A DNA stretch of 64,000 nt from Alphaproteobacteria bacterium (GCA_965232515.1 CBDDPY010000002.1:4608001-4672000), one strand, 5' to 3'. Shown: positions 37,641 to 58,162, counted from the stretch's first letter. Notes: generated from the sequence alone by a model not told the origin. Numbers and translations are program-made.

Positions 37641-37902
37641 CCGGTATTATTGTTTATTTGTTAGGGTTAACATACGCGATCTTTCTCGTTCAAGGAACGA
37701 AAAAGGTAGTTAACGGAATCAAAATGGATACTTACTAGCTTCACATGGCTAGTGCCCCCGTCGCATGACCAAAAACGGCAACCGACAGCCTCACGCACGA
37801 ACCTTGCCGCGAGCCGATACATATTCAGAACGTCACCAGTGTTGTGGTAGTCGATGGGCGGCTCGTTGATGCCGGGGCAAAACAGGTCGGTGGATTGCTG
37901 TC

Positions 37903-38277
37903 ATGTCATTGAAAATACTGTCGTTAATACTGGTGAGCGTTTGTCTGTCGGCAGTCGCGCAACTGATCCTGAAGCTTGGTATGTCGGAGCCCCAGGTGCA
38001 AAGCGCAATGACGGGGAATGATCGCGTTGCCGTGTTGCAGGCGGTTGCGCTTAATTTCAAGGTCTTGGCCGGGTTGACCACCTACGGTCTGGGCGCCGTG
38101 CTGTGGCTGTTCGTGCTGGCAAGAACGGATGTGTCGATGGCTTACCCGTTTGTCGGTTTGGGCTTTCTTCTGACCATGGCGTTTGGCGCCTTGTTCCTTG
38201 GCGAACCGATGTCGCTTGCCCGGATCGGAGGTACAATCCTGGTCGCATCGGGCGTCTACCTGGTGGCGCAGAGTTGA
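37903..38277 (+). CDS. SMR/EamA-type 4-TM protein (ArnE/ArnF-like putative lipid-sugar flippase)
   Basis: SAVAQLILKLG, LWLFVLARTDVSMAYPFVGLG, FLGEP...RIGG. Confidence 0.8.
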   Translation: MSLKILSLILVSVCLSAVAQLILKLGMSEPQVQSAMTGNDRVAVLQAVALNFKVLAGLTTYGLGAVLWLFVLARTDVSMAYPFVGLGFLLTMAFGALFLGEPMSLARIGGTILVASGVYLVAQS

Positions 38278-38383
38278 GGCGCCGTCGGCAGCGTGACCAT
38301 AGCGGCTTGTTGGTATGCGACGTTCGCCAGCCCGCCCCAAACTGTGCGGCCTGTAGGAGCCAATTCGGCGCGGAACGCTGAAA

Positions 38384-41580: not shown

Positions 41581-41613
41581 ATCAGATCCTCAAGCCGCGC
41601 TCTCCGGCCCGGC

Positions 41614-43311: not shown

Positions 43312-43453
43312 CGTTTAGCGCTCGTCACCGCCCACATTGCCGAGGTTGGACCGTTTGTTCCGGCCGGCGAAATGCCTCGCATGCTTCAGCGAATTGCGCA
43401 AGGTACGCCGTCGCCGATTTCGATCTCGGAGATGGGGTTCCGGTTCGATTCCG

Positions 43454-44632: not shown

Positions 44633-44800
44633 TACCAGGTGCCAAGTCACGGGATTATCGTCAGGTTTGGTTTGAGAATTACTAAGCCGAAGAGAGGAAT
44701 TCTTGGGCAACTCTAGCGGGCGGGTCCCAACTTGATCGTTGCTTTTCGGTGCAGGCGAACCCAATTCCCTGATCGAGGCAACCGGACGGGGTGGAGCGAC

Positions 44801-45037
44801 ATGCCAGGCGATTGGTGCCGGACAGATGTTCTGATTTCCAGACGCCGTTTTCTGACGCGGGCCGGTTTGGTGCTGGGATCTGGCGCCTTAACCGCCTGTT
44901 CGCCGCAGGAGGTGTTCCGACAGAATTGCGAAGGCAAAGGCCTGCAAGCCGGGACGGCGGCGTTCGACCGGTGTTTGGCGCGAGAGCGGGCAATTGTCGA
45001 TCGCATGGGTCGGTCGAGGCGCAGTGGCGGGCCTTAG
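44801..45037 (+). CDS. Small Cys-containing lipoprotein (Tat-like signal), paralog 1
   Basis: SRRRFL...LTAC lipobox; C-x14-C core; GGAG RBS. Confidence 0.7.
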   Translation: MPGDWCRTDVLISRRRFLTRAGLVLGSGALTACSPQEVFRQNCEGKGLQAGTAAFDRCLARERAIVDRMGRSRRSGGP

Positions 45038-45039
45038 GT

Positions 45040-45267
45040 ATGGCCGATCCGATCAAGGGTATCTCCGCGGGTGTCGGACCGTTTGGTCTGACTGTCTGGC
45101 TCGCCCTTGGCGTTTTGCTTGCCGGCTGCGCGGCTGACGACTGGATGCAGCGGAGTTGCATAAAGCAGGGTTTTCAGCCGGGCACGGCCGGCCATGACGC
45201 ATGCCTGGCGCGTGAAAAAGCCTGGAGCGATAAGCTGGATCGATATGGTCGCGGCGGCGGCCCATAG
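45040..45267 (+). CDS. Small Cys-containing lipoprotein (Sec-type signal), paralog 2
   Basis: LLAGC lipobox; same C-x14-C core and GGP C-terminus as the upstream gene. Confidence 0.7.
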   Translation: MADPIKGISAGVGPFGLTVWLALGVLLAGCAADDWMQRSCIKQGFQPGTAGHDACLAREKAWSDKLDRYGRGGGP

Positions 45268-45422
45268 TCCGGCACGCGCCTTATCCTCATTGTGCGTTCA
45301 TTGTATTCGCACGGTTGTTCACACATTTCCTTCGCATTTGATGCTCGGCCCGGCGGCTGGAACCGGTAAGGATTGCGCCCAATCGGCATTGCCGAGGTCC
45401 ACGAGCAATACGTGAGGGTTCC

Positions 45423-45785
45423 ATGATTTCCGTTCTTCGCCGGATCGGCGGCATTCTTGGCGTGCTGGCGCTGGTCGCCGCCTCGATCACTGGGCCGGCC
45501 GCCGCACAGACGGCGTACAGCGACGCCAAGCTTCAGGCTTTCGTCACGGCGGCGCTCGCGGTCGATGATCTGGTCAAGACCTGGGCGCCACGCATCGATA
45601 GCGCCGGCAGCCAGGAGAAGGCCGATCAGCTTCGCACCCAGGCCAATACCGAGTTGATCGGTGCGGTCGAACAGACAGACGGTATTTCGCTCGACGAATA
45701 TCGCCAGATCGTTCGGGACGCGGGCCAGGATGCCGACCTGTCGGCGCGCATCCAGAAGATCGTTGAGGAGAAATCCGTCGACTGA
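45423..45785 (+). CDS. DUF4168-like periplasmic protein
   Basis: Signal peptide, YSDAKLQAFVTA, GISLDEYRQI...DADLSARI. Confidence 0.75.
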   Translation: MISVLRRIGGILGVLALVAASITGPAAAQTAYSDAKLQAFVTAALAVDDLVKTWAPRIDSAGSQEKADQLRTQANTELIGAVEQTDGISLDEYRQIVRDAGQDADLSARIQKIVEEKSVD

Positions 45786-45880
45786 CCGACGCCCGACCGG
45801 TCGATCGACGGTATCGACCCCGACAGACGATTGCGCGGCGGTTGTAAGGCGTAAACCGCGCGTGCGAAGCTGCCGCGGAC

Positions 45881-46783
45881 ATGCCGGAACTGCCGGACAT
45901 TACGCTCTATATCGAGGCGCTTGAGCGACGCATATTGGATACGCCGCTGCTGGGCGTGCGGGTAACGAACCCATTTCTGTTGCGGACGGCGGAACCGCCC
46001 ATCGCATCGGTGGCCGGTCGGCGGGTCATCGCGCTACGGCGGATCGGCAAGCGGATCGCGATCGGGCTTGAGGACGAGTTATGGCTGGTTCTGCATCTGA
46101 TGATCGCCGGCCGGTTGCACTGGCGGGCGCCGGGCGCAGATCCTCCGGGCCGGCGCGGCCTGGCGGCGTTCGATTTTGCCGACGGCACCCTGATCCTGAC
46201 CGAGGCCGGCAGCAAGCGCCGCGCCTCGCTGCATGTCGTGCAGGGAGCCGCCGCCCTCGGCGCCCTCGATCCCGGCGGGCGTGAGGTGTTCGACATCGAT
46301 GTCGCGACGTTCGGTGCGTTGCTGACGCGCGAGAACCACACGTTGAAGCGGGCGCTGACCGATCCGCGTGTTTTCAGCGGGATCGGCAATGCGTTTTCCG
46401 ATGAGATTCTGCATCGTGCCCGAATGTCGCCGGTGGCCATGACCGACAGGCTGACGCCGGCGCAGATCGAGGCGCTGTTCCACGCGACCCGGGATACGCT
46501 GATGCACTGGGTGGCCGAGTTGCGGGCCGAGATGGGCGATGGCTTTCCGGAAAAGGTGACGGCGTTCCGCGACGGCATGGCGGTGCATGGGCGTTTCGGC
46601 AAGCCCTGTCCGGACTGCGGCACGGCCGTGCAGCGGATCCGGCATGCGAGCAACGAAACCAACTACTGTCCGCGCTGTCAGACCGAGGGCAAGCTGCTGG
46701 CCGATCGGGCCTTGTCGCGACTGTTGCGTAAAGACTGGCCGCGCACCATCGACGAGCTGGAACGCATGGGGCGAAGCGGTTGA
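45881..46783 (+). CDS. Fpg/Nei family DNA glycosylase (MutM paralog)
   Basis: MPELPD N-terminus, [25 protein letters not shown]2TH, CPDC...YCPRCQ zinc finger. Confidence 0.9.
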
Positions 46784-46814
46784 GTCGGGGACGACATCGG
46801 TCCGGGATGCCGGA

Positions 46815-48380
46815 TCAGCCTGTGATCGGCAGGTATTGGTAGAGCCAGGTCTCTGTCAGGGTCCGTTCGTTGAATCGCAGAAAGCAGCGCAAATCGACTG
46901 GCTGGTCACCGTCTGCATAAAGATCGAAGAAAGCCCGCCAGCGGTTCGTGCCAACGATCTGCAGTGCGTAATCGTTGTCGATCCGGCCGCGCGAGGCTGA
47001 GATTACGGGCTCGACGCCGTCCTGCTTGCGCAAGCCACGAAGCGGGCCGCCGTCGAAATCGATCACGAATTTCCTGGCGCCGTCGGGCCTTGGTTGGCCC
47101 GGAACACCGCCGCGTCCGAGACGGGTATGGCGAACGCGCCCGATGCTGTCGTCGGCAAAAGGTTCGTTGCCAAGCCAATGCAGACGATAATTGAACGACC
47201 ACTGCGAGCCGGCGGTCACCGGCTCCTCCGGCACCCAGTAGGCGGCGATGTTGTCGTGGATCTCGTCGTCGGTGGGAATTTCGACGAGCTGCACCGCCCC
47301 TCTTCCCCAATTTCCGCGCGGCTCCACCCAGACACTGGGACGGCGGTCGTAGAACACGCCGTCATCCTCATAGTTGTGGAACTGGCGATCGCGCTGCAAC
47401 AGTCCGAAGCCCTTTGGGTTGTCATCGACGAACGTATTCGTGACGACCCGATCGGGATTGTTGAGCGGGCGCCAGATCCGCTCGCCGGCTCCGGTCCAGA
47501 TCGCCAGGCCGTCGCTGTCGTGCACCTCGGGCCGCCAGTCCGTCGCCTGATGACGGTTGTTTTCGCCAAACCAGAACATGCTGGTCAGCGGTGCGATACC
47601 CATGCGTTCGATTTTCTTGCGCGGGAAAAGCTCGGCCTGAACATCCATCACGACGCCGGTCGATCGGGTGCAGTCGAACCGATAGGCCCCGGTGATGCTG
47701 GGGCCGTCCATCATCGCATAGAGGGTGATGGTCCCTGTATCCGGCGCCGGCCGGACCAGCCAGAACTGCGTGAAGCGCGGGAATTCCTCGGGCCAAGGCA
47801 TGGCCGTGTCGATCGCGATCCCGCGCGCCGACATGCCGTACTGGTTAAAGGCACCGGAGCTACGAAAGTAGGCCGCGCCCAGAAAGACCAGCCAGTCGGT
47901 CTTGCCGTCATCCGGATTCATCAGGCGAAAGCCGGCGAAGCCGAGATCGTCCGGCAACCGGGCGGCAAGTTCGGTGTCGCCGAAATCGAAGAAATCCGTG
48001 GAATAAAAAATCTGTCGGGCGGTAGCGCCGTCGACGGCGTGAATTGCGACCGGCGCCTTGAAGTACCGGCCGAGATGGAACAACTGGGCCGGAAAGGCCG
48101 CGGAGCCGTCGGCCCAGAGCGCTTGCTCGGGGCGAAAGCGGATCTTCTGATAGGCGTCGTAGTCGATGCTTTCGAGCAGTTCCGGATGTTGAATGATGGG
48201 GGTGTGGTAGGCCCGCTTGGCCGATTCGCGTGCCAGATTTCGTAACCAATCGAAATCAAACGCGCGGGAGGGACCGAACCGAACGACCGGGACCGTTGCC
48301 AGCGCTGGCCGCGAAAGTGTCAGCGGCAACATCGCCGCGGCGGCCAGCAATTGCCGGCGCGAAGTGAACTTGGACAACAT
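46815..48380 (-). CDS. opgD: Periplasmic glucan biosynthesis protein OpgG/OpgD family (Tat signal suggests OpgD)
   Basis: SRRQLL Tat motif, YDAYQKIRF, FLGAAYFR, APLTSMFW, RPEVHDSDGL, ETWLYQ. Confidence 0.88.
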   Translation of the reverse strand: MLSKFTSRRQLLAAAAMLPLTLSRPALATVPVVRFGPSRAFDFDWLRNLARESAKRAYHTPIIQHPELLESIDYDAYQKIRFRPEQALWADGSAAFPAQLFHLGRYFKAPVAIHAVDGATARQIFYSTDFFDFGDTELAARLPDDLGFAGFRLMNPDDGKTDWLVFLGAAYFRSSGAFNQYGMSARGIAIDTAMPWPEEFPRFTQFWLVRPAPDTGTITLYAMMDGPSITGAYRFDCTRSTGVVMDVQAELFPRKKIERMGIAPLTSMFWFGENNRHQATDWRPEVHDSDGLAIWTGAGERIWRPLNNPDRVVTNTFVDDNPKGFGLLQRDRQFHNYEDDGVFYDRRPSVWVEPRGNWGRGAVQLVEIPTDDEIHDNIAAYWVPEEPVTAGSQWSFNYRLHWLGNEPFADDSIGRVRHTRLGRGGVPGQPRPDGARKFVIDFDGGPLRGLRKQDGVEPVISASRGRIDNDYALQIVGTNRWRAFFDLYADGDQPVDLRCFLRFNERTLTETWLYQYLPITG

Positions 48381-48546
48381 CAGTACAGCTTCCCTGTCGG
48401 AGAAAAACGAGGACGGGCGCGATCACTTCGTGGCTCGACGCGGGGCGCAACGTTCGCGTCGCTAGCAGTTGCAGCTAGTTGACGACAGGTAGGGCGCAAG
48501 TCCGGTCCACGCCGTTGTCACAACCGTGCGGCATTTGCGCCGGCGT

Positions 48547-50181
48547 TCATCCATGTCGCGCGAACTTGAGATGGCAATCGTTCAGTCGGCCTTCGGCGGT
48601 CGTTCCGTGGGCGGCGAGATTGGTGTTCAGCGCGAACGCCTGACCGCGTTCCTCGAACTGGAGATCAATGACGCCGTTCTTGCCGACGCTGGTCTCAAAG
48701 ATCCGCTCCGGCGTCGGTGTCCATTCCCCCGACCGCTTGATCTTGGCCGTCGCCTTCGGTCCGTTGACGTCGAGCGCGAGGTCGAAGAAGACCTTTGTTG
48801 TCTGGCTTATCATGTCGGCAATCTGGCAGACGCCATATGCCTGCCACGTGCCGTCGTAAGGTGATGTCGTTGACCCCGATCGTTCGTTCGCGACCGGTTC
48901 CGGCGCGTTGGCGATCCGGGTGCGTGCCGTGTCGGCGTGACGGCCGTCGGGAAAGGCTTCCAGATAGGCACGGTAGCCGACGGTCGCCTCGCCGGTTTCG
49001 GCGACGTTCCAAAGGCCGTCGTCGTCCTGTGCCGCAGGATCGGCGCGCGCGAGCGCTTTTTCGACCTCATCGATCAAGGCGCGGGCCGTCAGTGCATGCC
49101 GGCCTTGCGGATGGTTTTCGAGATAGCTGCGAAACGCCGCCAGCGTGCCGATCTCCGAGGCGATCCGCCACGCCGCCTCTTCGGCCTCGTCGCGAACCCG
49201 GAGTTGATCGAGGCGTGCCGAGGCGAGCGGCGCAAATCGGCCCGACGGATAGGTGTCGAGGTAAGCCGTGTAGTCACTGGCGCTGCGGCTGTTGCTGATC
49301 GAATCCCAGAAGGCCAGCTCCACGGCCATGTCATTGTCCGGTTCCCGCGCGACGGCGACTTTTTGGGCCGCCTGATCCAGCTGGACCGTCGGTATGAACA
49401 GGAATTCTCCGCCTTCATGGCTGGCCCGACGGATCTCCGAATACTGCGGCGTCTGGTCGGCATTGACGACGACCTGGCGGCTGACCTGCAGGAACAGCTC
49501 GTCCCCGTCGAGGATGTTGTTGTTCTCGCGCAGAGCGCGGAGAAAGGCATTGGCGAAGGTCGAATGGCCGTTGGCGCCGGCGTCCGTCACCGGCTCAAGG
49601 CCGCCGGAAACAAGCGCGGTGCGCGACCGCCGCCCGGCGACGCGCTTGATCCAGGCCTGCCGTTCGAACCCGGTCGCGGGCCGCGCCCTGGCGGTCCGGA
49701 CCAGGGTGCCCGAGAAGCAGCTATCGGCGACGACGATGACGTGCCGCGCGGTCATGCCCTTGAGGCGGCGCGTGAGCGCATCGTTCGCGATCCAGTTCAG
49801 GTCGTTCTCGGGTTCGGCATCGACCGGTAGCCAATAACCCATGCCTGTTTCGCGCTCGAGCGTTCCATGGCCGGCATAGTAGATCAGCAAATTATCGCGC
49901 TCGGTCAGCTCGGCCCGCAGACGGTTGATGGAGCGAAGAGTGTCTTCGCGGGTCGCGTTGTGCAGCAGCGTCACGGTGAAGCCGTATTTGACCCGGAGCA
50001 GCTCGGCTGTCGCCGTCGCGTCGTTGACGGCCGTCTCCAGCTTGGGCAAGTGCTTGTAATCGTTGTTCCCGATGACGAGCGCGTGGTAACGGCCGAATTC
50101 TACATCTTGGACCGCAAGACTCGGGCGTGATAGATAGCAAAAGAGGCATATGATCGCCGCCGCGATCGAAAATATTCGCAT
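48547..50181 (-). CDS. Secreted caspase-like (peptidase C14) protein with C-terminal helical repeats
   Basis: Signal peptide, ALVIGNNDY, YYAGHG and ADSCFSG catalytic dyad, three W...Y/F-xx-YL-xx-(Y/H/F)PxG repeats. Confidence 0.88.
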   Translation of the reverse strand: MRIFSIAAAIICLFCYLSRPSLAVQDVEFGRYHALVIGNNDYKHLPKLETAVNDATATAELLRVKYGFTVTLLHNATREDTLRSINRLRAELTERDNLLIYYAGHGTLERETGMGYWLPVDAEPENDLNWIANDALTRRLKGMTARHVIVVADSCFSGTLVRTARARPATGFERQAWIKRVAGRRSRTALVSGGLEPVTDAGANGHSTFANAFLRALRENNNILDGDELFLQVSRQVVVNADQTPQYSEIRRASHEGGEFLFIPTVQLDQAAQKVAVAREPDNDMAVELAFWDSISNSRSASDYTAYLDTYPSGRFAPLASARLDQLRVRDEAEEAAWRIASEIGTLAAFRSYLENHPQGRHALTARALIDEVEKALARADPAAQDDDGLWNVAETGEATVGYRAYLEAFPDGRHADTARTRIANAPEPVANERSGSTTSPYDGTWQAYGVCQIADMISQTTKVFFDLALDVNGPKATAKIKRSGEWTPTPERIFETSVGKNGVIDLQFEERGQAFALNTNLAAHGTTAEGRLNDCHLKFARHG

Positions 50182-50514
50182 GACTAACGCATCGTGTTAT
50201 TGCGGGAGGATTTGGTATTTTTTCGAGTTCCGCCAATTGTATTTGGCTTAGTGCTATATGATGCTTTCGAACGCGTGTCATATCTGTGAGAAATCAATGT
50301 GAAAGGCCGAGCGCATTCTTGATCGACGGGCGCCGATGGAAGGCGCTGCGGCAGTTCGGATGCGGCTGACCTTTTTCATGCAAATCCGGCGGCAATTTCA
50401 CCGGTTTGTGATGCATTTCACACGGTTCGTCAGCCTGCATCCGTAGATATGAGGGGTCGTGAACCCGCTGTCGGGTCCGACTGCGTGCCGTGCCTGGGCA
50501 ATAGGGGCTGCATT

Positions 50515-51312
50515 ATGAGTTACGACGACGATCGATATCGTAACGAGCTGCGCGAGGCGGATTTGCGCCGAGACGATCTGCGTCAGGATTTTCTTCGCCA
50601 GGAGTGTCTGTTGGACGATCTTCGCTTGGCCGACATTCGACAGGAGCAGATCGATTGGGAATTCCGCCGTGATGACGCCGCGCACGAGCAGCGAGCCGTG
50701 GAGGCCCGCCATGAACACGGCAAAGAGCCGGCGAGATCGGGCGATGTTTCGGGTTTGGCCGGACTATATGGGCTCGACTACCAGCCGGCATTGGCCGATC
50801 GCGACCGCGGGTTGGACCGGTTTCCAGCATTGACGTTGGCGAACATAGATCTGTTTCCGCTGAATGGTGTGACATTGGGCCAGACGACGATCGCTGAGCT
50901 GAGCCAGCTTGGCCAACGCTCGCGCTACATCGACGACCAGACCGGCGAGCCGTTTCGCTGTTATCAGGTGGGCGGCATCAATTTCTGGTATCTCGACGGC
51001 GATGTCGCAGACAGCGTGTTCTTGTCCCACGGCACGACGATTCCGGAGAAATGGCGGAAACTTGGATTTTCCTGGGTTCATTCCTTCGATCGCTACGGAG
51101 AGCTGTTGCGCACGCTCGGTTTCGACGTGGCTGTGACACGGGCGTCGACGACACGTTGGTTCTCGGGCCGGCGATCCTTCTCGGCGGAACTGGAAGGCCG
51201 GCGGAAAGGTCCCGTCGATCTGCGCATCAAATTGGACTTCGATTTCGGCGAGGGCACGACGGCGGAAGACATCGACACGCTGTATTCCATCGATGTGGCG
51301 ATTACCGAATAG
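50515..51312 (+). CDS. Hypothetical protein with a charged repetitive N-terminus and a globular C-terminal domain
   Basis: Open frame divergent from the caspase gene; D/L/R-rich N-terminus; LFPLNGVTLGQTT...IPEKWRKLGFSW domain. Confidence 0.6.
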   Translation: MSYDDDRYRNELREADLRRDDLRQDFLRQECLLDDLRLADIRQEQIDWEFRRDDAAHEQRAVEARHEHGKEPARSGDVSGLAGLYGLDYQPALADRDRGLDRFPALTLANIDLFPLNGVTLGQTTIAELSQLGQRSRYIDDQTGEPFRCYQVGGINFWYLDGDVADSVFLSHGTTIPEKWRKLGFSWVHSFDRYGELLRTLGFDVAVTRASTTRWFSGRRSFSAELEGRRKGPVDLRIKLDFDFGEGTTAEDIDTLYSIDVAITE

Positions 51313-51549
51313 CCGCTGCGCGACCTGTTCCCCTGCGCGCGACCTCCGCTGCGCGGCCGAACGGCAATCATCCAAAAGGCGCAGAAACCTCATCCAAATC
51401 AATTAATCGATCATTTAGGTCGTGCGCCTATGGTTGGGTCGGGACGCCGGTTGGCGCCCGCGGCGATGTGGCATTGGCGCATGCTGCGGTTCCGCCATTC
51501 TGCAGGGCGTTCACATCCGCGACGGCTGCTGTTGGAACGCGACCGCCGA

Positions 51550-52053
51550 TTGAGCGATGGACCTTCCAAGATGGGCGTTTGGGAAGATCAATTGTTCCTC
51601 GATAGTTGCGATGGCCGCATCGCGTCGTTGTACCGCTATTGGACGGCGAAGCGGAGCGGTCGCTCGATGCCTTCGCGTGGGGACATCGATCCGATCGAGA
51701 TGAAGCCGTGGCTTGGTCGCATCGCGTTGATCGATGTGGCCGAGGAGCCGGTGGGGTTGCGTTGGCGGCTTGTCGGCTCGGAATTGACCATCGAGTCTGG
51801 CGTCGATTTGACCGGCAAGCGCGTCGACGAGGCGAGCTATCTGGGTGACTCGACGGTCGCCTATTCAGCGTTGACGGAATTCGCCGCCAGGGGGCTGCCG
51901 CGCTATCGCAACGATCCCTTGACGGCCACGTCGGGCTGGTTTCGAAGCACCGAGCGCCTGTATCTGCCGTTATCGGGCGATGGCAGCCGGGTCGACATGA
52001 TCCTGCTGTACGTGTTGAACGATATTCTTGTCGATCCCTACGATCGCGGCTGA
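51550..52053 (+). CDS. PAS_5 (DUF1457) stand-alone PAS protein
   Basis: LYRYWTAKR...MPSRGDIDPIEM, RWRLVGS, ERLYLPLSGDG; start uncertain. Confidence 0.85.
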   Translation: MSDGPSKMGVWEDQLFLDSCDGRIASLYRYWTAKRSGRSMPSRGDIDPIEMKPWLGRIALIDVAEEPVGLRWRLVGSELTIESGVDLTGKRVDEASYLGDSTVAYSALTEFAARGLPRYRNDPLTATSGWFRSTERLYLPLSGDGSRVDMILLYVLNDILVDPYDRG

Positions 52054-52070
52054 CCCGGCCGCAATCCCCC

Positions 52071-53348
52071 TCAATTCGGATCCGTCCTGTTGCGCGGACC
52101 GCTGAATTCATAGGCACCGATGTCCGGATCGCCGTCGCGTCCGCGCAGCGCGCCGGCCGCGTCGCGCCGGACGGCGTCGGGAAGATGAACGCCGCGATCG
52201 ATCAATTCATGCGCCGTCGCGCGCAGACGCAGGTCGCGTTGTTGCGCATTCACGAATGTCCGCTCGGCCAGACCAATATCCAGCACGTGATTTTGACGCT
52301 TGTCGACCTGCATGCCGGCATGTGTTTCGATCGCATGGCCAAGAACGTTGTTCCGAATGGCGACGCGGCTGACGGCCTTTGGATTGCGGCCGTCAATGGC
52401 GACGAGGATCGACTGGCCATTGGCGAACAGCGTGTTGTGGTCGACGCGGCCGCCATCGACATTGACCACGGCGATGCCGATCTCGGTCGAATCGACGACA
52501 ACGTTGTTGACGACCCGTCCACCGATATGCCCAGGCGTCTCGAGGCCCTCGCCACCGAAGACGATGCCGATATGGCATCGCGCCACCCGGTTTCCGGCGA
52601 TCAGGGTTCCGGTTGATGCGCTCTTGAGCTGAATGCAAGCGCCACGGTCGAAGCGGGAATGGGATTGCTCGGTCGGGCGACGGATGTCGTGCAGGTGGTT
52701 GCCGATGATCTGGAACCGGTCGCAGCGATTGCAGTCGATGCCTTGAAAGTTCCCGCCGCCCGGATGACTCGTATGGAAGATCTCGTTTCCACGCAGGACG
52801 ATGTCTCGGGGCCGGTCCCGCGGGTCGCCGCTGCCCGAGCCTTTGATTTCGGCATGGCTGTTAAGGGGACGGCGCCGGTGGTTGTCAAAGATTCGGTTGC
52901 TATCGAGCGTGATATGCGCGGCGCCCCTGTCGAAGAACACGCCGTGATAACCCCCGCCCGTGATGTCGAGATGCCGGATTTCGATGTGCCGGGCGCGGCT
53001 GAACTTCACGGTGATGTTGGCGCCACGGCCATCGATGACGGCGCTGCCCGGCCCGTCGCGAGCCCGCAGCACGATCGGCGCATCGCGGCTGCCTGAATTG
53101 CCGTCGGTGAAGCGCAACGTGCCCCGATAGCGACCGGGCAGGATTTCGATGATGTCGCCAGGCCGCGCCTGCCCGATCGCCATCCGCAGCTGCGGCATCG
53201 TCGCAACGGTCACGGCAGTGTCCGCTTCGCCGGTGGCGACCGGCGTCGTCCCGATGGCAAGGGCGAGCAGAAATGGACCGCCAGCGCGAAGGCGTTGGTG
53301 AAGGTGTTTCGCGGATAGAAATCGATCCACGCTCGATCCCATTGCCAT
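52071..53348 (-). CDS. Exported right-handed parallel beta-helix protein (pectin lyase-like fold)
   Basis: ARPGDIIEILPGRY, PIVLRA, repeated I-x-x-N-x-I ladders, C-terminal PDIGAYE. Confidence 0.82.
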   Translation of the reverse strand: MAMGSSVDRFLSAKHLHQRLRAGGPFLLALAIGTTPVATGEADTAVTVATMPQLRMAIGQARPGDIIEILPGRYRGTLRFTDGNSGSRDAPIVLRARDGPGSAVIDGRGANITVKFSRARHIEIRHLDITGGGYHGVFFDRGAAHITLDSNRIFDNHRRRPLNSHAEIKGSGSGDPRDRPRDIVLRGNEIFHTSHPGGGNFQGIDCNRCDRFQIIGNHLHDIRRPTEQSHSRFDRGACIQLKSASTGTLIAGNRVARCHIGIVFGGEGLETPGHIGGRVVNNVVVDSTEIGIAVVNVDGGRVDHNTLFANGQSILVAIDGRNPKAVSRVAIRNNVLGHAIETHAGMQVDKRQNHVLDIGLAERTFVNAQQRDLRLRATAHELIDRGVHLPDAVRRDAAGALRGRDGDPDIGAYEFSGPRNRTDPN

Positions 53349-53380
53349 GCGGTGACCGCAACCGTTCGGCATGATGCGAA

Positions 53381-53854
53381 TTAGGGCGGCGTTCGGCAAT
53401 CACATAGCCGGCTGGACTGTCGGCGCAGGATGGCCGCCTCGCCAGTCATGGCGATGGCGATGCTGAGTGCCAGGGTCGAGCGGCCCTGCGGGTTGCTGCG
53501 GTGGTACCGGAGCATGCGCGCCAGGCGCAGCAGGATATGCCGCGTCCAGTCCCGACCGATATCATTGTCTACGGTGAGCAGATCGCGATCGAGATGTTGC
53601 GGCCACAACGGCGGCAGGTCGCGCGCTCGGTCGTAGAATGCAGCCGCGGCGCGGATGCGTCGCTTGCGCGCCGCCAGGCCCTGGGCGCGCGCCTGGGCGG
53701 AGGCGATGGCGACATGCGGCGAGACGCCGCGGCGCAGCAGACCTGAAACCAGTCCCGGATTTGGCGTCGGAACGGCAGCGTCGCCGTCCGAGGCCGTTTC
53801 CGGCGGATTGCCGTTCGTATCACGAGCGGCGGTGGCGGCGGTCTTGGTCATCAT
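53381..53854 (-). CDS. DUF6477-like protein (GTA-regulon-associated family; tentative)
   Basis: RIRAAAAFYDRARDLPPLWP...RHILLRLARML...IAMTGEAAIL resembles remembered DUF6477 patterns (YxRxRxL; IAMxGEA). Confidence 0.55.
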   Translation of the reverse strand: MMTKTAATAARDTNGNPPETASDGDAAVPTPNPGLVSGLLRRGVSPHVAIASAQARAQGLAARKRRIRAAAAFYDRARDLPPLWPQHLDRDLLTVDNDIGRDWTRHILLRLARMLRYHRSNPQGRSTLALSIAIAMTGEAAILRRQSSRLCDCRTPP

Positions 53855-53878
53855 TGGCCCCCCGGCAGCGTCAAGGCA

Positions 53879-54313
53879 TCAGGCGTGGATGGCGACGACG
53901 CTTTGGCTCGACGAAACGGCGCGCCGATCAAGCGTGCGGCGTAGATAGCCCTGCAGGCAGGAAATCACGCCTGCTTTCGTCCCGTCATGGTGCGGGCTGG
54001 GATCGTCGAACACTCGCCAGGGGATGCCGAGGGTAGTGGCAACGCGTTTCATCACCTGCGGGGAAACGGCGATCGGCGAGCGGTGGCGCGGCAGATCGAT
54101 GTCCGGATTATCCTGCAGAAAATCGGCACGCAGTTCGGGATCGGCGAGAAAATGACCGCAGGCGCAGCCGGGCGTGCCGCAGAAATGAAAGACGAATGCA
54201 TGGTCGTAGGTCTCGGACCGCTCGATGGTGGCAATCAGTCGTTGCAGTCGTTGGCGGCGTCGGATGCTCTCGGGATCGATGTTTGGAATGTCGCGAGGGT
54301 CGATCATTCGCAT
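53879..54313 (-). CDS. Phage-type hypothetical protein with HFCGTPGCACGH motif
   Basis: CGTxxCxxGH motif typical of phage early-region ORFs; first gene after the leftward promoter. Confidence 0.6.
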   Translation of the reverse strand: MRMIDPRDIPNIDPESIRRRQRLQRLIATIERSETYDHAFVFHFCGTPGCACGHFLADPELRADFLQDNPDIDLPRHRSPIAVSPQVMKRVATTLGIPWRVFDDPSPHHDGTKAGVISCLQGYLRRTLDRRAVSSSQSVVAIHA

Positions 54314-54466
54314 GAGGCAGGTTTCCCATTCTTGCGCTGCTGTTCCGGCGCCGGCGCGTTTTCGTCGCACGTGCGCCGCTGAATAGCTGGCCGCATTGGT
54401 GTGGCCGATCTATGGCCGTTGCGTGGCGGCAAGATGCCCGTCCCGGTTTCGGGCGGCTGTGATATA

Positions 54467-54517
54467 TGTGTAGCATAGTTATGCGGTATACGCAAATGAT
54501 AATCGCATAATTATGCG
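54467..54517 (-). promoter_or_regulatory. Leftward promoter (PL-like) with two repressor operators
   Basis: Minus strand TTGCGT-N17-TACACA; operator GCATAGTTATGC (54473-54484) in the spacer and CGCATAATTATGCG (54504-54517) upstream. Confidence 0.7.
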
Positions 54518-54585
54518 TTATTGAGTTCCAGATATCGCGCGCGCCGCGTGACGGCGGCACGCGTCAGGACTGAATCGGGAGAGAT

Positions 54586-55188
54586 CTATCGCCGTCTGGG
54601 CTTGTAGACCCAGCGGACGACGGCGCCGTTGCGGATAATCACATCTTCGATTTCGGGCGCGTTGTACGAAGCCAGGCTGAACAGGCCCGGCCGGGTTCCG
54701 CGGCGGACCTGTTTCAGAAACCTTCGGCCGTCGTTGAGCTCGACGATACAGTCTTCACCAAGCAGTTCACTGAGGTCCTGCACCGGAATCTCGTCGAAGA
54801 AGATGATGTCGCGGTCCTTGTAAACGGGATACATGGACTGCCCGCGAATGATCGCGGCCTCGGTGCCGACGGGACCTTCTGCCTCGTCGATGCCGTCCGC
54901 ATCATCGAGAGCGAACACCTCTTCGCCGGCTCCGACATAGAACTTCACTTTCACGACCCCAAATGCGCTTTCCTCGCCCAGCAGAGCAGCGACAGAAACG
55001 CCTTGCTGCCGCGCCAGCTTTTCCAAGACTCGGGTCGAAAGAGAGTCGGATAGTCCGTTCAGGAAGTTCCTGATTGCGCCCTCACTGACCCCCGCCGCGT
55101 CGGCCCACGGCTTGTTCTTGAGCTGCCTTCTCTGCATGAACCGGCGCAGAGCGGCACGCCTTCGTTCGGCTTCAATGTTAGCGGACAT
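54586..55188 (-). CDS. CI/LexA-like repressor: XRE HTH plus S24 autopeptidase (RogA-like architecture)
   Basis: WADAAGVSEGAIRNFLNG HTH; VGAG cleavage site, RGQSMYP catalytic Ser, RFLKQ catalytic Lys, LASYNAP. Confidence 0.9.
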   Translation of the reverse strand: MSANIEAERRRAALRRFMQRRQLKNKPWADAAGVSEGAIRNFLNGLSDSLSTRVLEKLARQQGVSVAALLGEESAFGVVKVKFYVGAGEEVFALDDADGIDEAEGPVGTEAAIIRGQSMYPVYKDRDIIFFDEIPVQDLSELLGEDCIVELNDGRRFLKQVRRGTRPGLFSLASYNAPEIEDVIIRNGAVVRWVYKPRRR

Positions 55189-55211
55189 AGTGAAGGAAAC
55201 AATAGGCGGGT

Positions 55212-55280
55212 GCGCATAATTATGCGCTAGCATATTTATGCGAAATATCGGTTGAAATCGCATTTATATGCGATTATTTC
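55212..55280 (+). promoter_or_regulatory. Rightward promoter (PR-like) with three repressor operators
   Basis: GCGCATAATTATGCGC (55212-55227), GCATATTTATGC (55230-55241), CGCATTTATATGCG (55259-55272); TTGAAA (55252)-N17-TATTTC brackets the third. Confidence 0.72.
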
Positions 55281-55287
55281 TTTCGTC

Positions 55288-55929
55288 ATGATAGCGAATC
55301 AATCGGTATCCCAGCCATCACCTGCAAATTCGGACCCGATCGCCCGTGGATCGTCCGCGGAACCGGCGGACAACGGGCATGATCCATTCACGACCGTTGC
55401 CGCCGTGATCGCGTTGGAGCCGCGTCAATGTCGTTGGCCGAACGGTGTGCCTGGGCATTCGGGGTTCCATTTCTGCGGTGCGCGGACGGCCGTCGGCGAA
55501 AGCTATTGCGCGGAGCATCTGCGTCGATCCCTGCATCGCTCGGAGCGTCGGACGCCGGAAGCCTTGTATCGCTTGAACAGGGCGCAGCAAGCCGCCGTCA
55601 TGGATGGCGGTCGATCGGACGCCCTTGCCGTTCCGGCAGAGACAAAGACGACGACATCCCGATCGCGGCTTCAGCGACAGCCGCGACAATCCGACGTCAA
55701 TCCGCCGGTTCCGCAGCAGAAGCTGGCACGCGGTGTGCTGCAGCGTCAGTTGTTCGACTTTCTCAGGCGACAGCCTCGCGGGGTCGATCTCGCACCGGCC
55801 CGCGACATCGCGCAGCAACTGGACTTGAAACCGGAAACCGTGCGCGGCCAGCTCAGCCGGTTCGAGGCGCGGGGTTGGATCCGGCGCCAACCGTTCGATC
55901 TGCTGCACGATCCCACTGCCGCGACGTGA
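55288..55929 (+). CDS. GcrA C-terminal-like domain fused to a C-terminal winged HTH; putative transcription activator
   Basis: LEPRQCRWPNG...FHFCG...SYCAEH GcrA signature near the N-terminus; LQRQLFDFL...ARDIAQQLDLKPETVRGQLSRFEARGWIRR wHTH at the C-terminus. Confidence 0.8.
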   Translation: MIANQSVSQPSPANSDPIARGSSAEPADNGHDPFTTVAAVIALEPRQCRWPNGVPGHSGFHFCGARTAVGESYCAEHLRRSLHRSERRTPEALYRLNRAQQAAVMDGGRSDALAVPAETKTTTSRSRLQRQPRQSDVNPPVPQQKLARGVLQRQLFDFLRRQPRGVDLAPARDIAQQLDLKPETVRGQLSRFEARGWIRRQPFDLLHDPTAAT

Positions 55930-56132
55930 GCCGGACGATGTTGTCATCATTGCTCGGCAAACGCGCCGGCCAGAGCCCGGCCACCGCCGAAGATATCCGT
56001 GAGATGGCCCAGCGCGCCTGGCGTCAGAAGGGACTGGCGCTGATCGATCCGGCCGATGTGCCGGACCCGTTCGCGCGCCAGGCCATCATCAACGAAGCCG
56101 AACGCCTCTATGGCGAACGATTGGAGGCGTAG
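55926..56132 (+). CDS. Small phage-type hypothetical protein (68 aa)
   Basis: GTG start overlaps the upstream TGA (GTGA coupling); SSLLG...AWRQKGLALIDP...QAIINEAERLYG. Confidence 0.65.
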   Translation: MSRTMLSSLLGKRAGQSPATAEDIREMAQRAWRQKGLALIDPADVPDPFARQAIINEAERLYGERLEA

Positions 56133-56204
56133 GGACGTGGGCGAAAGCGAGCAATTCCGGCTGATGCCCCGGGGCGCCTGTCATGCGGACGACGGAGCAT
56201 CGGC

Positions 56205-56861
56205 ATGAAAGCTGGCGCAGACAGGCCGCGACGGCCGGGCAACGCGAACCTCGATACGGCCACCGATGAGCGGGTTTCGCGCGCATCCGCTGCGGCCGAG
56301 AAGATCCGACGGGACGACCGGGCGCGTCAGAAACGATCCGATGAGATGACGCCGCTCGACTGGCGGGCACGGCACGATCCGCTGGGCGGCAAGCAGCGCG
56401 CCGTCGTCCGCCACGGCCTGACCATGGCGGACGCTCACGGCACGATTTCGCACCCGCACCGGGTCTTCGACACGCTGGCCGCGCTGCATCGCCGCGGCGC
56501 CATCGACGATCCGGCCTATGCCGCCGGCGAGCGCTTTCGAAACGACTGGGAACGGGCGCATCTCGACCCCTTGCATTCGCCGGCGCTGGATCGGGTGCTG
56601 GGCGCCAGTGGGGGTGGTGGCGAGCACATTTCCGAACGGGCGGCGCGGGCGCGTGACGAAATCTGGCAGGCGTTGCAGGCGCTGGGCGGTCATGCCACGC
56701 CGATCGGCTCGGCCGCCTGGCACGTTCTCGGCTTTGGCCTAACGATAAAGGACTTCGCCGGCCGGACCCAACTCGGCCAAGGACGCGCGCTTGACGAACG
56801 TACGGCGCGGGGGCTGGTGATCGGCGCCTGCTGCGTGCTGGCCGGCCATTACGGGACGTGA
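56205..56861 (+). CDS. DUF6456-like protein (GafZ / GafA C-terminal type activator-antiterminator)
   Basis: LAALHRRGAIDDPAYAAGERFRNDWERA...AARARDEIWQALQALG...GLTI...VLAGHYG matches the remembered DUF6456 pattern; GGAG RBS. Confidence 0.78.
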   Translation: MKAGADRPRRPGNANLDTATDERVSRASAAAEKIRRDDRARQKRSDEMTPLDWRARHDPLGGKQRAVVRHGLTMADAHGTISHPHRVFDTLAALHRRGAIDDPAYAAGERFRNDWERAHLDPLHSPALDRVLGASGGGGEHISERAARARDEIWQALQALGGHATPIGSAAWHVLGFGLTIKDFAGRTQLGQGRALDERTARGLVIGACCVLAGHYGT

Positions 56862-56899
56862 TATGCAATCCCGTCTTTTGGTCTGACGGAGTTGCCGGC

Positions 56900-57118
56900 A
56901 TGAAGGTGACGATCGAATACTGCGTCCAGTGAAACTACGAACCGAATGCTCTCCGTGCGAGGGACCGGCTGGTGGAGAAGGCGGGCGCCGAGGTTGAGTT
57001 CATCAAATCCGGCGGCGGTGTTTTCGAGATCACCGTGGACGGCGCCTTGCGGTTCTCGAAGAAGCAGCTCGGCCGTTTTCCGACCGACGAAGAGGTCGAT
57101 GCGCTGATACCCAACTGA
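56900..57118 (+). CDS. Rdx/SelW-SelT-SelH family selenoprotein (72 aa, Sec at codon 11)
   Basis: MKVTIEYCVQ[TGA 56930-56932]NYEPNA...SGGGVFEITVDG...FSKKQLGRFP; both halves match the Rdx family across the TGA; GGAG RBS; downstream hairpin. Confidence 0.9.
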
Positions 57119-57166
57119 TCCGTTTGGCGATAGGACGGCGAACGCCGAGTGACGATGCCGGCGCAA

Positions 57167-58162
57167 TCAGCCGGTGGTGCGTCTGATGCCGTGCCATTCC
57201 TGTCGCGTCCACTCGACGCAGGCGATGCTCTGCTCGAAGAGCGAATAGCGGCAGCCTTCACCGTAATCGAGGTTCGGGATGAACTCGGTCGAGATCTGAC
57301 CGAGTTGGCCGTCCGGATCGTCGGCGTGGTGGCGCAACAGGTGACGGATCGCCTCCTTCCACGGCGCCAGCGCTTCTTCGTCCCAGTCGGCGTGGTACTC
57401 GCCGGGCCCGGGTCGTTTGAACGGATACTGGATGCCGCGGCCGGGCCGGCCCTGATCGTCGCGGGCCATGGTGTTCTTCGGGTTGTTGGGCACGGCGGCC
57501 CGCGCATGGCAATGGCGCACCCAGCCGGCGTCGATCCATTCGTCGATGACGTTGCCCGGATGAAACGGATTCAACACCAGCTCGCCGGCTTCGACGGCTG
57601 GCCGGATGTTCTGGACGTCCTGTTCTTTGGGGTTGTCGATCTTGAAGATGACGTGGCTGTGGTCGAGCGTCATGTGGAATGGCGCGCCGGCCGCTTCGAC
57701 GGCGCGCGCGACGTCGCCGACGCGGCGGAAATCCTCCGACCACATGTTGACGTGCACCTCGAAGCACGGGGTTACGCCGTATTTCTGTCCGAGCTCGTGG
57801 AATGACAGATAGGTTTCAACGACGCGCTCATTGCTGACCAACTCGTTGTCGGCGTCATAGGTCATGATCTGCGTGTTGTGCACCAGCGAGCCGAGCTGTT
57901 TCGCCATCCGCAGGTTCTCTTCGAACAGCGGCTCGTCGCGCCCCAGCGTGTAGAACCAGCCGCCGGCGCGTACCGGCAGGTCGTATTTGGCGCTCGCCTC
58001 GAGAAACTGTTCCAGCTCGCCGGGTCCCGGCGTCTTGTCGACATAGTCGAAGACGCCGGCCTCTTTCACCATGCGGAACCGCGTGTCGATATCGGGCATC
58101 GGATCGGCATGGGTATGCTTGATGCCGTTGGTCTGAATGCCGAACAGCAGCTTGTCGGCCAT
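57167..58162 (-). CDS. Xylose isomerase-like TIM-barrel protein
   Basis: FEVHVNMWSE, TLDHSH, RHCHAR, ISTEFIP metal ligands; GGAGG RBS. Confidence 0.8.
   Translation of the reverse strand: MADKLLFGIQTNGIKHTHADPMPDIDTRFRMVKEAGVFDYVDKTPGPGELEQFLEASAKYDLPVRAGGWFYTLGRDEPLFEENLRMAKQLGSLVHNTQIMTYDADNELVSNERVVETYLSFHELGQKYGVTPCFEVHVNMWSEDFRRVGDVARAVEAAGAPFHMTLDHSHVIFKIDNPKEQDVQNIRPAVEAGELVLNPFHPGNVIDEWIDAGWVRHCHARAAVPNNPKNTMARDDQGRPGRGIQYPFKRPGPGEYHADWDEEALAPWKEAIRHLLRHHADDPDGQLGQISTEFIPNLDYGEGCRYSLFEQSIACVEWTRQEWHGIRRTTG

What the first reader, a model, noticed from the sequence alone, without database searches (positions are those of the whole stretch)
53381..56861. Stand-alone lambda-like switch wired to GTA-type activators: candidate new GTA or cryptic-phage control module
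Seen: a 3.5-kb unit [DUF6477-like, Cys/His ORF] <- PL | XRE-S24 repressor | PR -> [GcrA-domain-wHTH, 68-aa ORF, DUF6456-like]. All frames are open, the repressor keeps its Ala-Gly site and Ser/Lys dyad, and the window has no integrase, replication, terminase or capsid gene. Known: DUF6456 proteins are GTA activators or antiterminators (R. capsulatus GafA, Caulobacter GafZ), the CI-like repressor RogA silences gafYZ, and DUF6477 accompanies gafA. Inference: a domesticated phage immunity region acting in trans on a distant GTA cluster, possibly RecA-inducible, with a GcrA-domain protein replacing GafY. I do not recognise this architecture from described systems. The alternative is a heavily deleted prophage remnant.
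Basis: partly seen in the sequence, partly recalled or inferred. Interest (0 to 1): 0.9.

Follow-up and report, generated by a model that had tools for sequence, protein, structure and literature searches.

The report
Orphan phage switch with GafZ-like output
A complete lambda-type repressor switch of phage origin is kept intact in a bacterium in which no phage-head or gene-transfer-agent gene was found, and it drives two small operons for proteins that appear to act on RNA polymerase, so it is a new variant built from known parts and not a GTA controller.

Summary
The unit is real. A CI-like XRE-S24 repressor (Ala-Gly site and Ser/Lys dyad kept) sits between two sets of palindromic operators. 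Three lie at PR and two at PL. The AT-spacer form of the palindrome occurs four times in the 7.39-Mb genome, all inside the module. PR encodes a GcrA sigma-interacting zinc finger fused to a wHTH, a 68-aa phage-type protein, and a divergent DUF6456 protein. PL encodes two lineage-specific proteins. The DUF6477 call failed.

The GTA reading is not supported. The genome gave no match for DUF2460, HK97 or Phage_capsid_4 capsid, portal, three TerL families, tail sheath or Phage-tail_3. None of the 15 relatives carrying the F homolog has DUF2460 or an HK97 capsid.

Relatives of the DUF6456 protein lie in full prophages just upstream of terS-TerL. Stand-alone repressor/DUF6456 modules recur in other lineages. 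One is fixed at a syntenic site in a marine genus. All genes show dN/dS of 0.05-0.32.

Best reading: a domesticated, probably RecA-inducible phage switch whose effectors act on RNA polymerase. Its targets are unknown. This is a new variant of a known kind, of moderate interest.

The parts
53381..53854 (-). A: 157-aa protein, second gene of the PL operon, no known family
   Evidence: Open frame. No Pfam, PHROG, NCBIfam or PADLOC hit. 8 database relatives of 67-100% identity, none named. dN/dS 0.25 against the same-genus contig L028. Two paralogs elsewhere in the genome lie beside integrase genes.
53879..54313 (-). B: 144-aa Cys/His protein (ORF open up to 54370), first gene of the PL operon
   Evidence: Open frame. 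Invariant HFCGTP.CACGHF motif in 7 relatives of 60-87% identity. No family hit. Model pLDDT 73.7, with no PDB fold match at E<=0.001. dN/dS 0.17.
54469..54517 (.). OL: two operator palindromes (cores 54473-54484 GCATAGTTATGC and 54505-54516 GCATAATTATGC) between the stop of C and the start of B
   Evidence: Sequence read directly. Members of repeat family D1. One of the only two clusters of this motif in the genome.
54586..55188 (-). C: CI-like XRE-HTH + S24 repressor (200 aa from Met26; ORF open up to 55263)
   Evidence: Pfam and PHROG hits. Best PDB hit of its profile is lambda CI, with the cleavage site and Ser/Lys dyad aligned. 96% identical in L028, dN/dS 0.046.
55210..55272 (.). OR: three operator palindromes (cores 55214-55225, 55230-55241, 55260-55271). 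The third fills the spacer of a TTGAAA-17-TATTTC promoter-like site facing D
   Evidence: Sequence. Conserved in L028 while the flanking coding DNA diverges. Genome-wide census. Repeat family D1. The promoter reading is my own reading of the sequence. The scanner reported only a minus-strand site at 55302..55273.
55288..55929 (+). D: GcrA sigma-interacting zinc finger (residues about 40-85) + linker + C-terminal wHTH. First gene of PR (ORF open from TTG 55252)
   Evidence: Pfam GcrA and wHTH families. PDB 5yix_B and 7ye1_G. CCCH ligands C48, C63, C74, H77 plus W50 and Y73 invariant in 14 of 14 D/D' sequences. Of the 149 non-self hits listed from 1.84 billion representatives, 148 cover only the zinc-finger part and one matches a short repetitive stretch.
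55926..56132 (+). E: 68-aa protein. Its GTG start overlaps the stop of D
   Evidence: phrog_19772 1.3e-5. E-like ORFs lie directly upstream of F-like genes in prophages and viral contigs. dN/dS 0.31.
56205..56861 (+). F: divergent DUF6456 (GafA/GafZ-family) protein, last phage-type gene of PR
   Evidence: Pfam 32.3 bits against 26.3. The only DUF6456 in the genome. 16 of 29 family members hit DUF6456 and nothing else. Model residues 88-218 have pLDDT above 90. BFVD matches are uncultured phage proteins, one of them named DUF6456. dN/dS 0.088.
52071..53399 (-). Possible third gene of the PL operon: 442-aa beta-helix protein whose start overlaps the end of A
   Evidence: Beta_helix and NosD hits. 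19-nt overlap with A. A 75%-identical homolog lies directly downstream of A in L028. Co-transcription is inferred, not shown.

Best explanation
This is a phage-derived, self-contained lambda-type switch that the host lineage has kept after all structural, replication and integration genes were lost. Nothing links it to a GTA in this genome.

Shown: the repressor C has the CI architecture with its cleavage site and catalytic dyad. Five copies of its presumed operator lie at two promoter regions and essentially nowhere else in the genome, so its direct regulon is the module itself. All six genes are under purifying selection.

Inferred mechanism: in undamaged cells C dimers occupy OL and OR and shut both promoters. 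C probably autoregulates as well. DNA damage activates RecA, C cleaves itself at Ala-Gly, and PL and PR fire.

PR makes three proteins. D docks on region 2 of sigma-70 through a GcrA-type CCCH zinc finger and brings its own wHTH DNA-binding domain. This is the reverse domain order of GcrA and a functional stand-in for GafY. E and F are the pair that related phages place at the end of their early region, just before terS-TerL. There they most likely switch on or antiterminate late transcription, as GafZ does.

PL makes B and A, and probably the secreted beta-helix protein.

No late genes remain, yet the repressor and operators of the sister module are conserved at one chromosomal site across a whole genus. 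The retained role is therefore most likely a damage-gated reprogramming of host RNA polymerase. Its targets are still unknown.
For: Architecture and domains.

Operators: five palindromes at two sites. GCAT[AT]4ATGC has 4 hits in the genome, all in the module. Of 203 GCAT-N4-ATGC sites, the only pairs within 60 bp are the three inside the module. The OR region is 91% identical to the same-genus contig, with the operators kept, while dS of the genes is 0.43-0.71.

Selection: dN/dS is A 0.25, B 0.17, C 0.046, D 0.32, E 0.31, F 0.088.

Sister module (G <- C <-> D' -> F): present in 14 of 17 marine loci. It has flanking M48 peptidase and asparaginase genes in the 6 loci whose output I could read. 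It has its own TATACG-N4-CGTATA operators at both promoters. Ten of 13 genome-wide sites in five genomes lie in the module. Median dN/dS is 0.10-0.29.

Phage origin: F relatives lie just upstream of terS-TerL-portal-capsid in prophages. They lie after the primase in phage AcaML1. They occur in 12 IMG/VR contigs, 9 of which have an E-like ORF directly upstream.

No GTA or head genes.

Known functions, from passages of papers: GcrA-SID binds sigma-70 region 2 through a CCCH finger (PMC5887438). GafZ is an antiterminator loaded with GafY, and RogA is a LexA/CI-like repressor of gafYZ (PMC11150451; PMC9632790).
Against: No target of D, E or F was found, and no binding was demonstrated.

F's model finds no solved fold, neither Q21 nor sigma region 4, at E<=0.001. 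Its place in DUF6456 rests on a modest Pfam score covering profile positions 12-90 of 136.

dN/dS for the window's version rests on one genome pair. In the marine clade dS is near saturation (median 1.1-1.35).

Two of 17 marine loci (L036, L038) have F with no detectable C, D' or G in the 2.4-3.4 kb upstream.

The module's GC3 (0.67-0.78) is below that of most neighbouring genes (up to 0.84-0.93), which suggests later acquisition in this genus.

Contigs from RNA libraries cover the whole region evenly and say nothing about on or off states.

The genome does hold phage debris elsewhere: an island with an integrase, an orphan terS and four large ORFs with no PHROG match, next to a paralog of A. 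A hidden target is therefore not excluded.
Confidence: 0.55

Rival explanations
1. One reading: the module is the master switch of a GTA or other phage-like particle encoded elsewhere in the genome, with D and F playing GafY and GafZ.
For: F is a DUF6456 protein. RogA-GafYZ is a precedent for a CI/LexA-like repressor above GafYZ. The genome has an island at C2:4.250-4.268 Mb with an integrase, an orphan terS (phrog_4044, 8.9e-39) and four ORFs of 133-857 aa with no PHROG match, beside a paralog of A.
Against: The 96%-complete genome gave no match for DUF2460, Phage_capsid, Phage_capsid_4, Phage-tail_3, portal, three TerL families or tail sheath. tblastn with proteins of F-bearing prophages found no structural hit. 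No TerL ORF follows the orphan terS. Of the module-bearing relatives, 0 of 13 (g6), 0 of 1 (g2) and 0 of 2 (g1) have DUF2460 or an HK97 capsid. Weak-scoring DUF6456 proteins co-occur with DUF2460 in only 9 of 39 genomes, against 28 of 38 for strong ones.
Confidence: 0.05
2. Inert wreck: the last surviving piece of a deleted prophage, drifting towards loss and without function.
For: No integrase, replication or structural genes lie nearby. GC3 is atypical. A and B are narrow ORFan families. Immunity regions are often the last part of a prophage to go (established knowledge, recalled).
Against: All six frames are intact in two genomes, with dN/dS 0.05-0.32. The operators are conserved above the synonymous rate. 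The sister module is kept at one syntenic site in 14 species-level loci under purifying selection. Similar stand-alone repressor/F pairs occur in two further families (G092, G165).
Confidence: 0.12
3. Anti-phage remnant: C gives superinfection immunity against phages that use the same operators. D, E and F mistime or hijack the late transcription of related incoming phages.
For: A viral contig (L109) has the same 14-nt operator twice, 959 bp apart, flanking an XRE repressor and a Cro-like gene. E-F pairs are common in phages. F sits in the late-regulator position in prophages.
Against: C and the L109 repressor are barely alike (22% identity, E 0.052). PADLOC gave 0 hits for 8 proteins. Immunity specificities usually diversify, but in the marine genus the repressor is 78-88% identical and the operators are conserved over dS above 1. 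None of the 80 operator-bearing viral loci held encodes D, E, F, A or B relatives.
Confidence: 0.13

Closest known systems
Lambda immunity region (cI, OL/OR, PL/PR)
   Same: An HTH + S24 repressor with an Ala-Gly site and a Ser/Lys dyad. Multiple palindromic operators at two promoter regions that flank the repressor gene. Three sites lie at OR, one of them inside the PR spacer. One leftward and one rightward operon.
   Different: No cro-type small repressor was recognised, and the first PR gene is a sigma-docking wHTH protein. OL has two sites instead of three. No N, Q, replication, lysis or structural genes follow. Cooperative binding and bistability were not tested.
Caulobacter RogA-GafY-GafZ control of CcGTA (PMC9632790, PMC11150451; passages read)
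   Same: A LexA/CI-like repressor directly above an operon that ends in a DUF6456 protein. The partner protein contacts sigma-70.
   Different: RogA lacks the catalytic residues and is unlinked to gafYZ, whereas C keeps them and is adjacent. GafY is like DnaA domain IV and binds sigma-70 domains 3-4, whereas D carries a GcrA zinc finger whose GcrA counterpart binds region 2. F is a low-scoring, divergent DUF6456. No GTA cluster was found.
Rhodobacter capsulatus GafA (PMC9638019; passages read)
   Same: Shares the DUF6456 family.
   Different: GafA is a single 42-kDa fusion with a DnaA-like N-terminus and acts through the RNAP omega subunit on RcGTA. Here F is 218 aa with no DnaA-like part and there is no RcGTA.
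GcrA (PDB 5YIX, 7YE1; PMC5887438 passages read)
   Same: A CCCH zinc finger with the sigma-contact aromatic residues conserved.
   Different: D lacks the N-terminal methyl-DNA-binding domain. The finger lies at the N-terminal side and a wHTH follows it. The spacing is C-X10-C where GcrA has C-X9-C. The real GcrA gene is elsewhere in the genome.
Phage late-gene regulators (Q of lambdoid phages; BrrG of BaGTA, bioRxiv 10.1101/2024.11.20.624540, passages read)
   Same: The gene position of F relatives in prophages, at the end of the early region and immediately before terS-TerL.
   Different: No sequence or fold match to Q21 or any solved structure. Antitermination by this branch has not been tested.

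Membership tests
Lambda CI / LexA-type S24 repressors | N-terminal HTH plus C-terminal Peptidase_S24 domain | tested here: met
   PF00717 25.0 bits (cut-off 23.3). HTH_26, HTH_3 and HTH_31 matched below their cut-offs. phrog_4 5.2e-16. The profile matches full-length lambda CI 3bdn_A at E 2.6e-8.
Lambda CI / LexA-type S24 repressors | Ala-Gly cleavage site and Ser/Lys catalytic dyad | tested here: met
   AG aligns with the QAG of CI. G.SM aligns with GNSM, and the Lys with FKKL. G88, S118 and K159 are invariant in 8 of 8 homologs.
Lambda CI / LexA-type S24 repressors | RecA-stimulated self-cleavage | not testable with these tools
   Needs a biochemical or in vivo assay.
DUF6456 (GafA C-terminus / GafZ) | Reaches the Pfam gathering score | tested here: met
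   32.3 bits against 26.3, but only profile positions 12-90 of 136. 16 of 29 family members hit DUF6456 at E<=0.01.
GafYZ/GafA GTA activators | Adjacent or fused DnaA-domain-IV-like partner (GafY) | tested here: not met
   The upstream genes are a GcrA-finger/wHTH protein and a 68-aa protein. No DnaA-like hit.
GafYZ/GafA GTA activators | An RcGTA-type structural cluster in the same genome | tested here: not met
   No DUF2460, Phage_capsid, Phage-tail_3, portal or TerL in the 96%-complete genome. The same markers were found in the Caulobacter control genome.
GafYZ/GafA GTA activators | Antitermination or activation at a target promoter | not testable with these tools
   No target is known. Needs reporter assays and ChIP.
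RogA | S24-like domain that has lost the catalytic residues; gene unlinked to gafYZ (as described in PMC9632790) | tested here: not met
   C keeps Ser and Lys and lies next to the operon it should control.
GcrA (equivalog) | Full-length GcrA with the N-terminal methyl-DNA-binding domain | tested here: not met
   NCBIfam sig70cofacGcrA 40.1 bits against a cut-off of 280. The Pfam match covers only positions 86-150 of 155. The true GcrA is at C2:2465468-2465857.
GcrA sigma-interacting domain | CCCH zinc ligands and sigma-contact residues (W120, F130, F132, Y142) | tested here: met
   C48-X14-C63-X10-C74-X2-H77, with W50, F60, F62 and Y73. Ligands, Trp and Tyr are invariant in 14 of 14. The motif comes from PMC5887438. 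One extra residue lies in the second spacer.
DUF6477 | Any match of protein A to the family | tested here: not met
   No Pfam hit for A at E<=10. Its relatives carry no precomputed Pfam domain.

The most novel reading that the evidence does not exclude
Alphaproteobacteria have repeatedly domesticated a phage cassette as a damage-gated 'sigma-70 hijack' switch. When the CI-like repressor cleaves, a GcrA-type zinc finger is released together with a GafZ-like factor. The finger either stands alone, as in the marine genus, or is fused to a wHTH, as here. It competes with or replaces GcrA on region 2 of sigma-70. The two proteins together redirect or stall host transcription, giving an SOS-linked cell-cycle or stress checkpoint that needs neither a GTA nor a prophage. 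GafZ-family proteins would then have a cellular role outside gene transfer.
Probability: 0.2. Interest if true: 0.75.

Novelty: new variant of a known kind. Interest (0 to 1): 0.55.

Why it matters
DUF6456 proteins are currently read as GTA activators. Here, weak-scoring members of the family are mostly found in genomes without a GTA marker (30 of 39). The branch to which F belongs turned up in prophages, in the position of a late-gene regulator. It also turned up in orphan switches that selection has kept.

The pairing with a GcrA sigma-docking finger in place of GafY appears in none of the papers my literature searches returned. This particular finger + wHTH fusion was the only one among the 149 non-self hits listed from 1.84 billion protein representatives.

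The module is small, self-contained and has obvious operators. That makes it a convenient system for asking what a GafZ-like protein does to RNA polymerase when there is no GTA, and why bacteria keep such switches.

Tried and rejected
Complex prediction of F with D: verdict 'no answer', score 0.00. It is not used as evidence either way.

Fold searches gave nothing at E<=0.001 against PDB, for F and for B. Sequence searches against PDB found nothing for single C or for the F profile.

Protein atlas: B gave only weak leads to unnamed viral clusters (0.90, low recognition). A gave nothing.

PADLOC: 0 of 8 proteins hit.

The PL leader RNA has no unusual structure (z -1.4) and no convincing terminator lies between PL and B. 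An 'F antiterminates PL' idea therefore has no support.

Sequencing runs: contigs of three RNA libraries from one study hold a 95-99% identical copy. They cover genes and flanks alike at depth 2-9. One raw polyA run gave 0 reads. No inference on expression or habitat is drawn.

I considered that the manC gene downstream of F in the marine genus might be the target. I dropped this because two loci (L018, L019) lack manC there.

I considered the operator 14-mer in viral contigs as evidence of homoimmune phages. Of 83 contigs, 82 carry a single site, which I took to be chance (not tested), and only L109 is convincing.

They may already list homologs of this branch.

Four papers were seen only as search listings: PMC3556154, PMC6473078, PMC8116508 and PMC10688885.

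Full report
**What is there**

The window is G000:C2:4608001-4672000 of a 7.39-Mb genome in 4 contigs, 96% complete.

Six frames are open at 53381-56861:
- A: 53381-53854, minus strand.
- B: 53879-54313 or 54370, minus strand.
- C: 54586-55188 or 55263, minus strand.
- D: 55252 or 55288 to 55929, plus strand.
- E: 55926-56132, plus strand.
- F: 56205-56861, plus strand.

C is an XRE-HTH + Peptidase_S24 protein. A profile of eight homologs finds full-length lambda CI as its best solved relative (3bdn_A, E 2.6e-8). The Ala-Gly site, the G.SM serine and the lysine all align. G88, S118 and K159 are invariant in 8 of 8 sequences.

D matches only the C-terminal part of GcrA (Pfam positions 86-150 of 155). 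It scores 40 bits against the 280-bit cut-off of the GcrA equivalog. It aligns with the solved sigma-interacting domain 5yix_B (E 1.2e-8). According to passages of PMC5887438, that domain is a CCCH zinc finger (C-X14-C-X9-C-X2-H) that binds region 2 of sigma-70 and needs W120, F130, F132 and Y142. D has C48-X14-C63-X10-C74-X2-H77 with W50, F60, F62 and Y73. The ligands, the Trp and the Tyr are invariant in 14 of 14 D-type proteins. D ends in a wHTH (LexA_DNA_bind 25.6 bits; weak match to the PdhR wHTH).

F reaches DUF6456 (32.3 bits against 26.3) and is the only such gene in the genome.

E matches phrog_19772.

A and B match nothing, so the DUF6477 label for A has no support.

**The switch**

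The strongest new evidence is in the DNA. Three palindromes lie between C and D: GCATAATTATGC, GCATATTTATGC and GCATTTATATGC, at 55214, 55230 and 55260. Two lie between the stop of C and the start of B: GCATAGTTATGC and GCATAATTATGC, at 54473 and 54505.

The repeat finder returns them as its first family. In the whole genome GCAT[AT]4ATGC occurs 4 times, all here. Among 203 GCAT-N4-ATGC sites, the only pairs within 60 bp are the three pairs in the module.

The third OR site fills the 17-nt spacer of a TTGAAA...TATTTC promoter-like site facing D. This is my own reading. The scanner reported only a minus-strand site at 55302..55273.

The OR region is 91% identical to the same-genus contig L028 with the operators kept.

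The layout is therefore lambda-like: PL and PR flank the repressor gene, and both carry its sites. The repressor's direct regulon appears to be the module alone.

**Is it alive?**

L028, from a second genome of the genus, carries all six genes plus the beta-helix gene downstream of A. dN/dS is 0.25, 0.17, 0.046, 0.32, 0.31 and 0.088 for A to F. This rests on one pair, with dS 0.43-0.71.

A sister module occurs in a marine genus (g6) and in g2. It reads [116-150-aa protein G] <- [S24 repressor] <-> [about 105-aa GcrA finger only, D'] -> [F].
- It is present in 14 of 17 loci of that type.
- Two loci (L036, L038) have F without the other genes in the 2.4-3.4 kb upstream.
- One locus is cut by a contig end.

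The six g6 loci whose output I could read share M48 peptidase and asparaginase genes on the F side.

The sister module has its own operator, TATACG-N4-CGTATA, at both promoters. In five genomes, 10 of 13 sites with at most 1 mismatch lie in the module.

Median dN/dS is G 0.16, C 0.10, D' 0.29 and F 0.24, with dS near saturation.

Two further families hold stand-alone divergent S24 repressor <-> F pairs among host genes (G092, G165).

**Origin**

F relatives in five other genomes sit in prophages, directly upstream of terS, a GpA-like TerL, portal and capsid.

In Acetobacteraceae they follow a large primase and an E-like ORF. In one locus they precede a Phage_capsid_4 gene.

The only hits in the phage collection were three records of Acidithiobacillus phage AcaML1. 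In the annotated record the hit is gp20, which lies after the primase and before the methylases and terminase.

Twelve IMG/VR contigs carry F relatives, 9 of them with an E-like ORF directly upstream.

F's model is confident for residues 88-218. It matches only predicted phage proteins, one of them named DUF6456 (3 hits at E<=0.001), and no solved fold.

**The GTA question**

The genome gave no match for any of these families:
- DUF2460, Phage_capsid, Phage-tail_3.
- TerL_ATPase, Terminase_6N, Phage_portal.
- Phage_capsid_4.
- Phage_sheath_1 and Terminase_3.

The control genomes did respond to these searches. tblastn with all proteins of at least 100 aa from five F-bearing prophage loci found no TerL, portal or capsid.

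F homologs occur in 15 of 41 relatives: g1 2 of 2, g2 1 of 1, g6 11 of 13, and one weak hit elsewhere. DUF2460 and the HK97 capsid were found in none of the g1, g2 or g6 genomes.

In 401 genomes of the class, 77 have a DUF6456 hit:
- 38 are strong (E<=1e-30). Of these, 28 have DUF2460.
- 39 are weak, including this genome. Of these, 9 have DUF2460.
- Of the 324 genomes without DUF6456, 31 have DUF2460.

Canonical GafA/GafZ goes with GTAs, and this branch does not.

For comparison, passages of PMC9632790 and PMC11150451 describe RogA as a LexA/CI-like repressor without catalytic residues, unlinked to gafYZ. They describe GafY as like DnaA domain IV and binding sigma-70 domains 3-4, and GafZ as an antiterminator. 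PMC9638019 describes GafA. A preprint argues that GafZ and GafA resemble Q21. I could not reproduce that resemblance for F.

**Reading**

The parts are known and the combination is not. D's fusion of a finger with a wHTH was found only in its own cluster. Of 1756 hits at E<=0.001 in 1.84 billion representatives, 150 were listed, including D's own cluster. Of the other 149, 148 cover only the finger region and one matches a short repetitive stretch.

No paper returned by my searches pairs a GcrA domain with a GafA/GafZ protein. By their titles, the two papers that hold both the terms GcrA and GafA deal with other matters.

I commit to a damage-gated, phage-derived switch whose effectors act on RNA polymerase. 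Its role is more likely cellular than phage immunity. The reason is that the marine genus has kept one repressor specificity at one site over long divergence. Targets remain unknown, and the rivals are scored above.

**Limits**

Nothing here shows binding, cleavage or expression. The complex prediction gave no answer, and the RNA-library contigs are uninformative.

Phage debris elsewhere in the genome includes four large ORFs with no PHROG match. This leaves a small chance of an unrecognised target.

Noticed in passing
window 56900-57118 (+): A 72-aa SelW-like Rdx gene lies 38 nt after the stop of F on the same strand. It has an in-frame TGA at 56930-56932 in a C-V-Q-U motif (Pfam Rdx 62.1 bits when TGA is read through). 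The start and the TGA are conserved in the tail of L028. It is a likely selenoprotein and may be co-transcribed with the PR operon. Standard ORF lists show only its 48-aa C-terminal half.
   Followed up: partly
G000:C2:4250257-4266096 (locus L181), about 400 kb from the window: A low-GC3 island holds an integrase (phrog_216), a 77-aa XRE regulator divergent from a 109-aa paralog of A (67% identity), four ORFs of 470, 133, 471 and 857 aa with no PHROG match, and an orphan terminase small subunit (phrog_4044, 8.9e-39) with no TerL after it. A third A paralog (61% identity) lies at C2:1368529-1369167 beside an integrase-like gene.
   Followed up: partly
L109 1519-2771 (IMG/VR contig): A viral contig carries the window's operator core CGCATAATTATGCG twice, 959 bp apart. 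The two sites flank a 229-aa XRE-HTH repressor and a divergent Cro-like 94-aa gene. That repressor is only 22% identical to C.
   Followed up: partly
G000:C2:2423816-2424121 (-) (locus L060): A second small ORF carries only the GcrA zinc finger (28.6 bits). It lies among core genes (aroC-, tlyA- and dxs-like) and is unrelated to the module. Short finger-only proteins of 70-120 aa are also common among the database hits of D.
   Followed up: no
L078 9613-11701 and L084 2108-3522: Two other alphaproteobacterial families have a stand-alone divergent pair among ordinary host genes: an S24 repressor facing a DUF6456-like gene, with no GcrA-finger gene. In L078 a 556-aa secreted protein follows the F-like gene.
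   Followed up: partly
window about 37000-57000: GC and GC3 are lower here (GC 0.57-0.65; GC3 mostly 0.70-0.80) than in the first 36 kb (GC3 mostly 0.8-0.93). The stretch includes a caspase-domain protein (48547-50181), a pentapeptide-repeat protein (43454-44764) and two large ORFs without Pfam hits (39799-43311). It may be a larger acquired region.
   Followed up: no
window 51900-57300, runs X4, X6, X7: Contigs from three RNA-seq libraries of one study, labelled with another organism, hold a 95-99% identical copy of the whole module and its flanks. This points to a third strain carrying it.
   Followed up: partly
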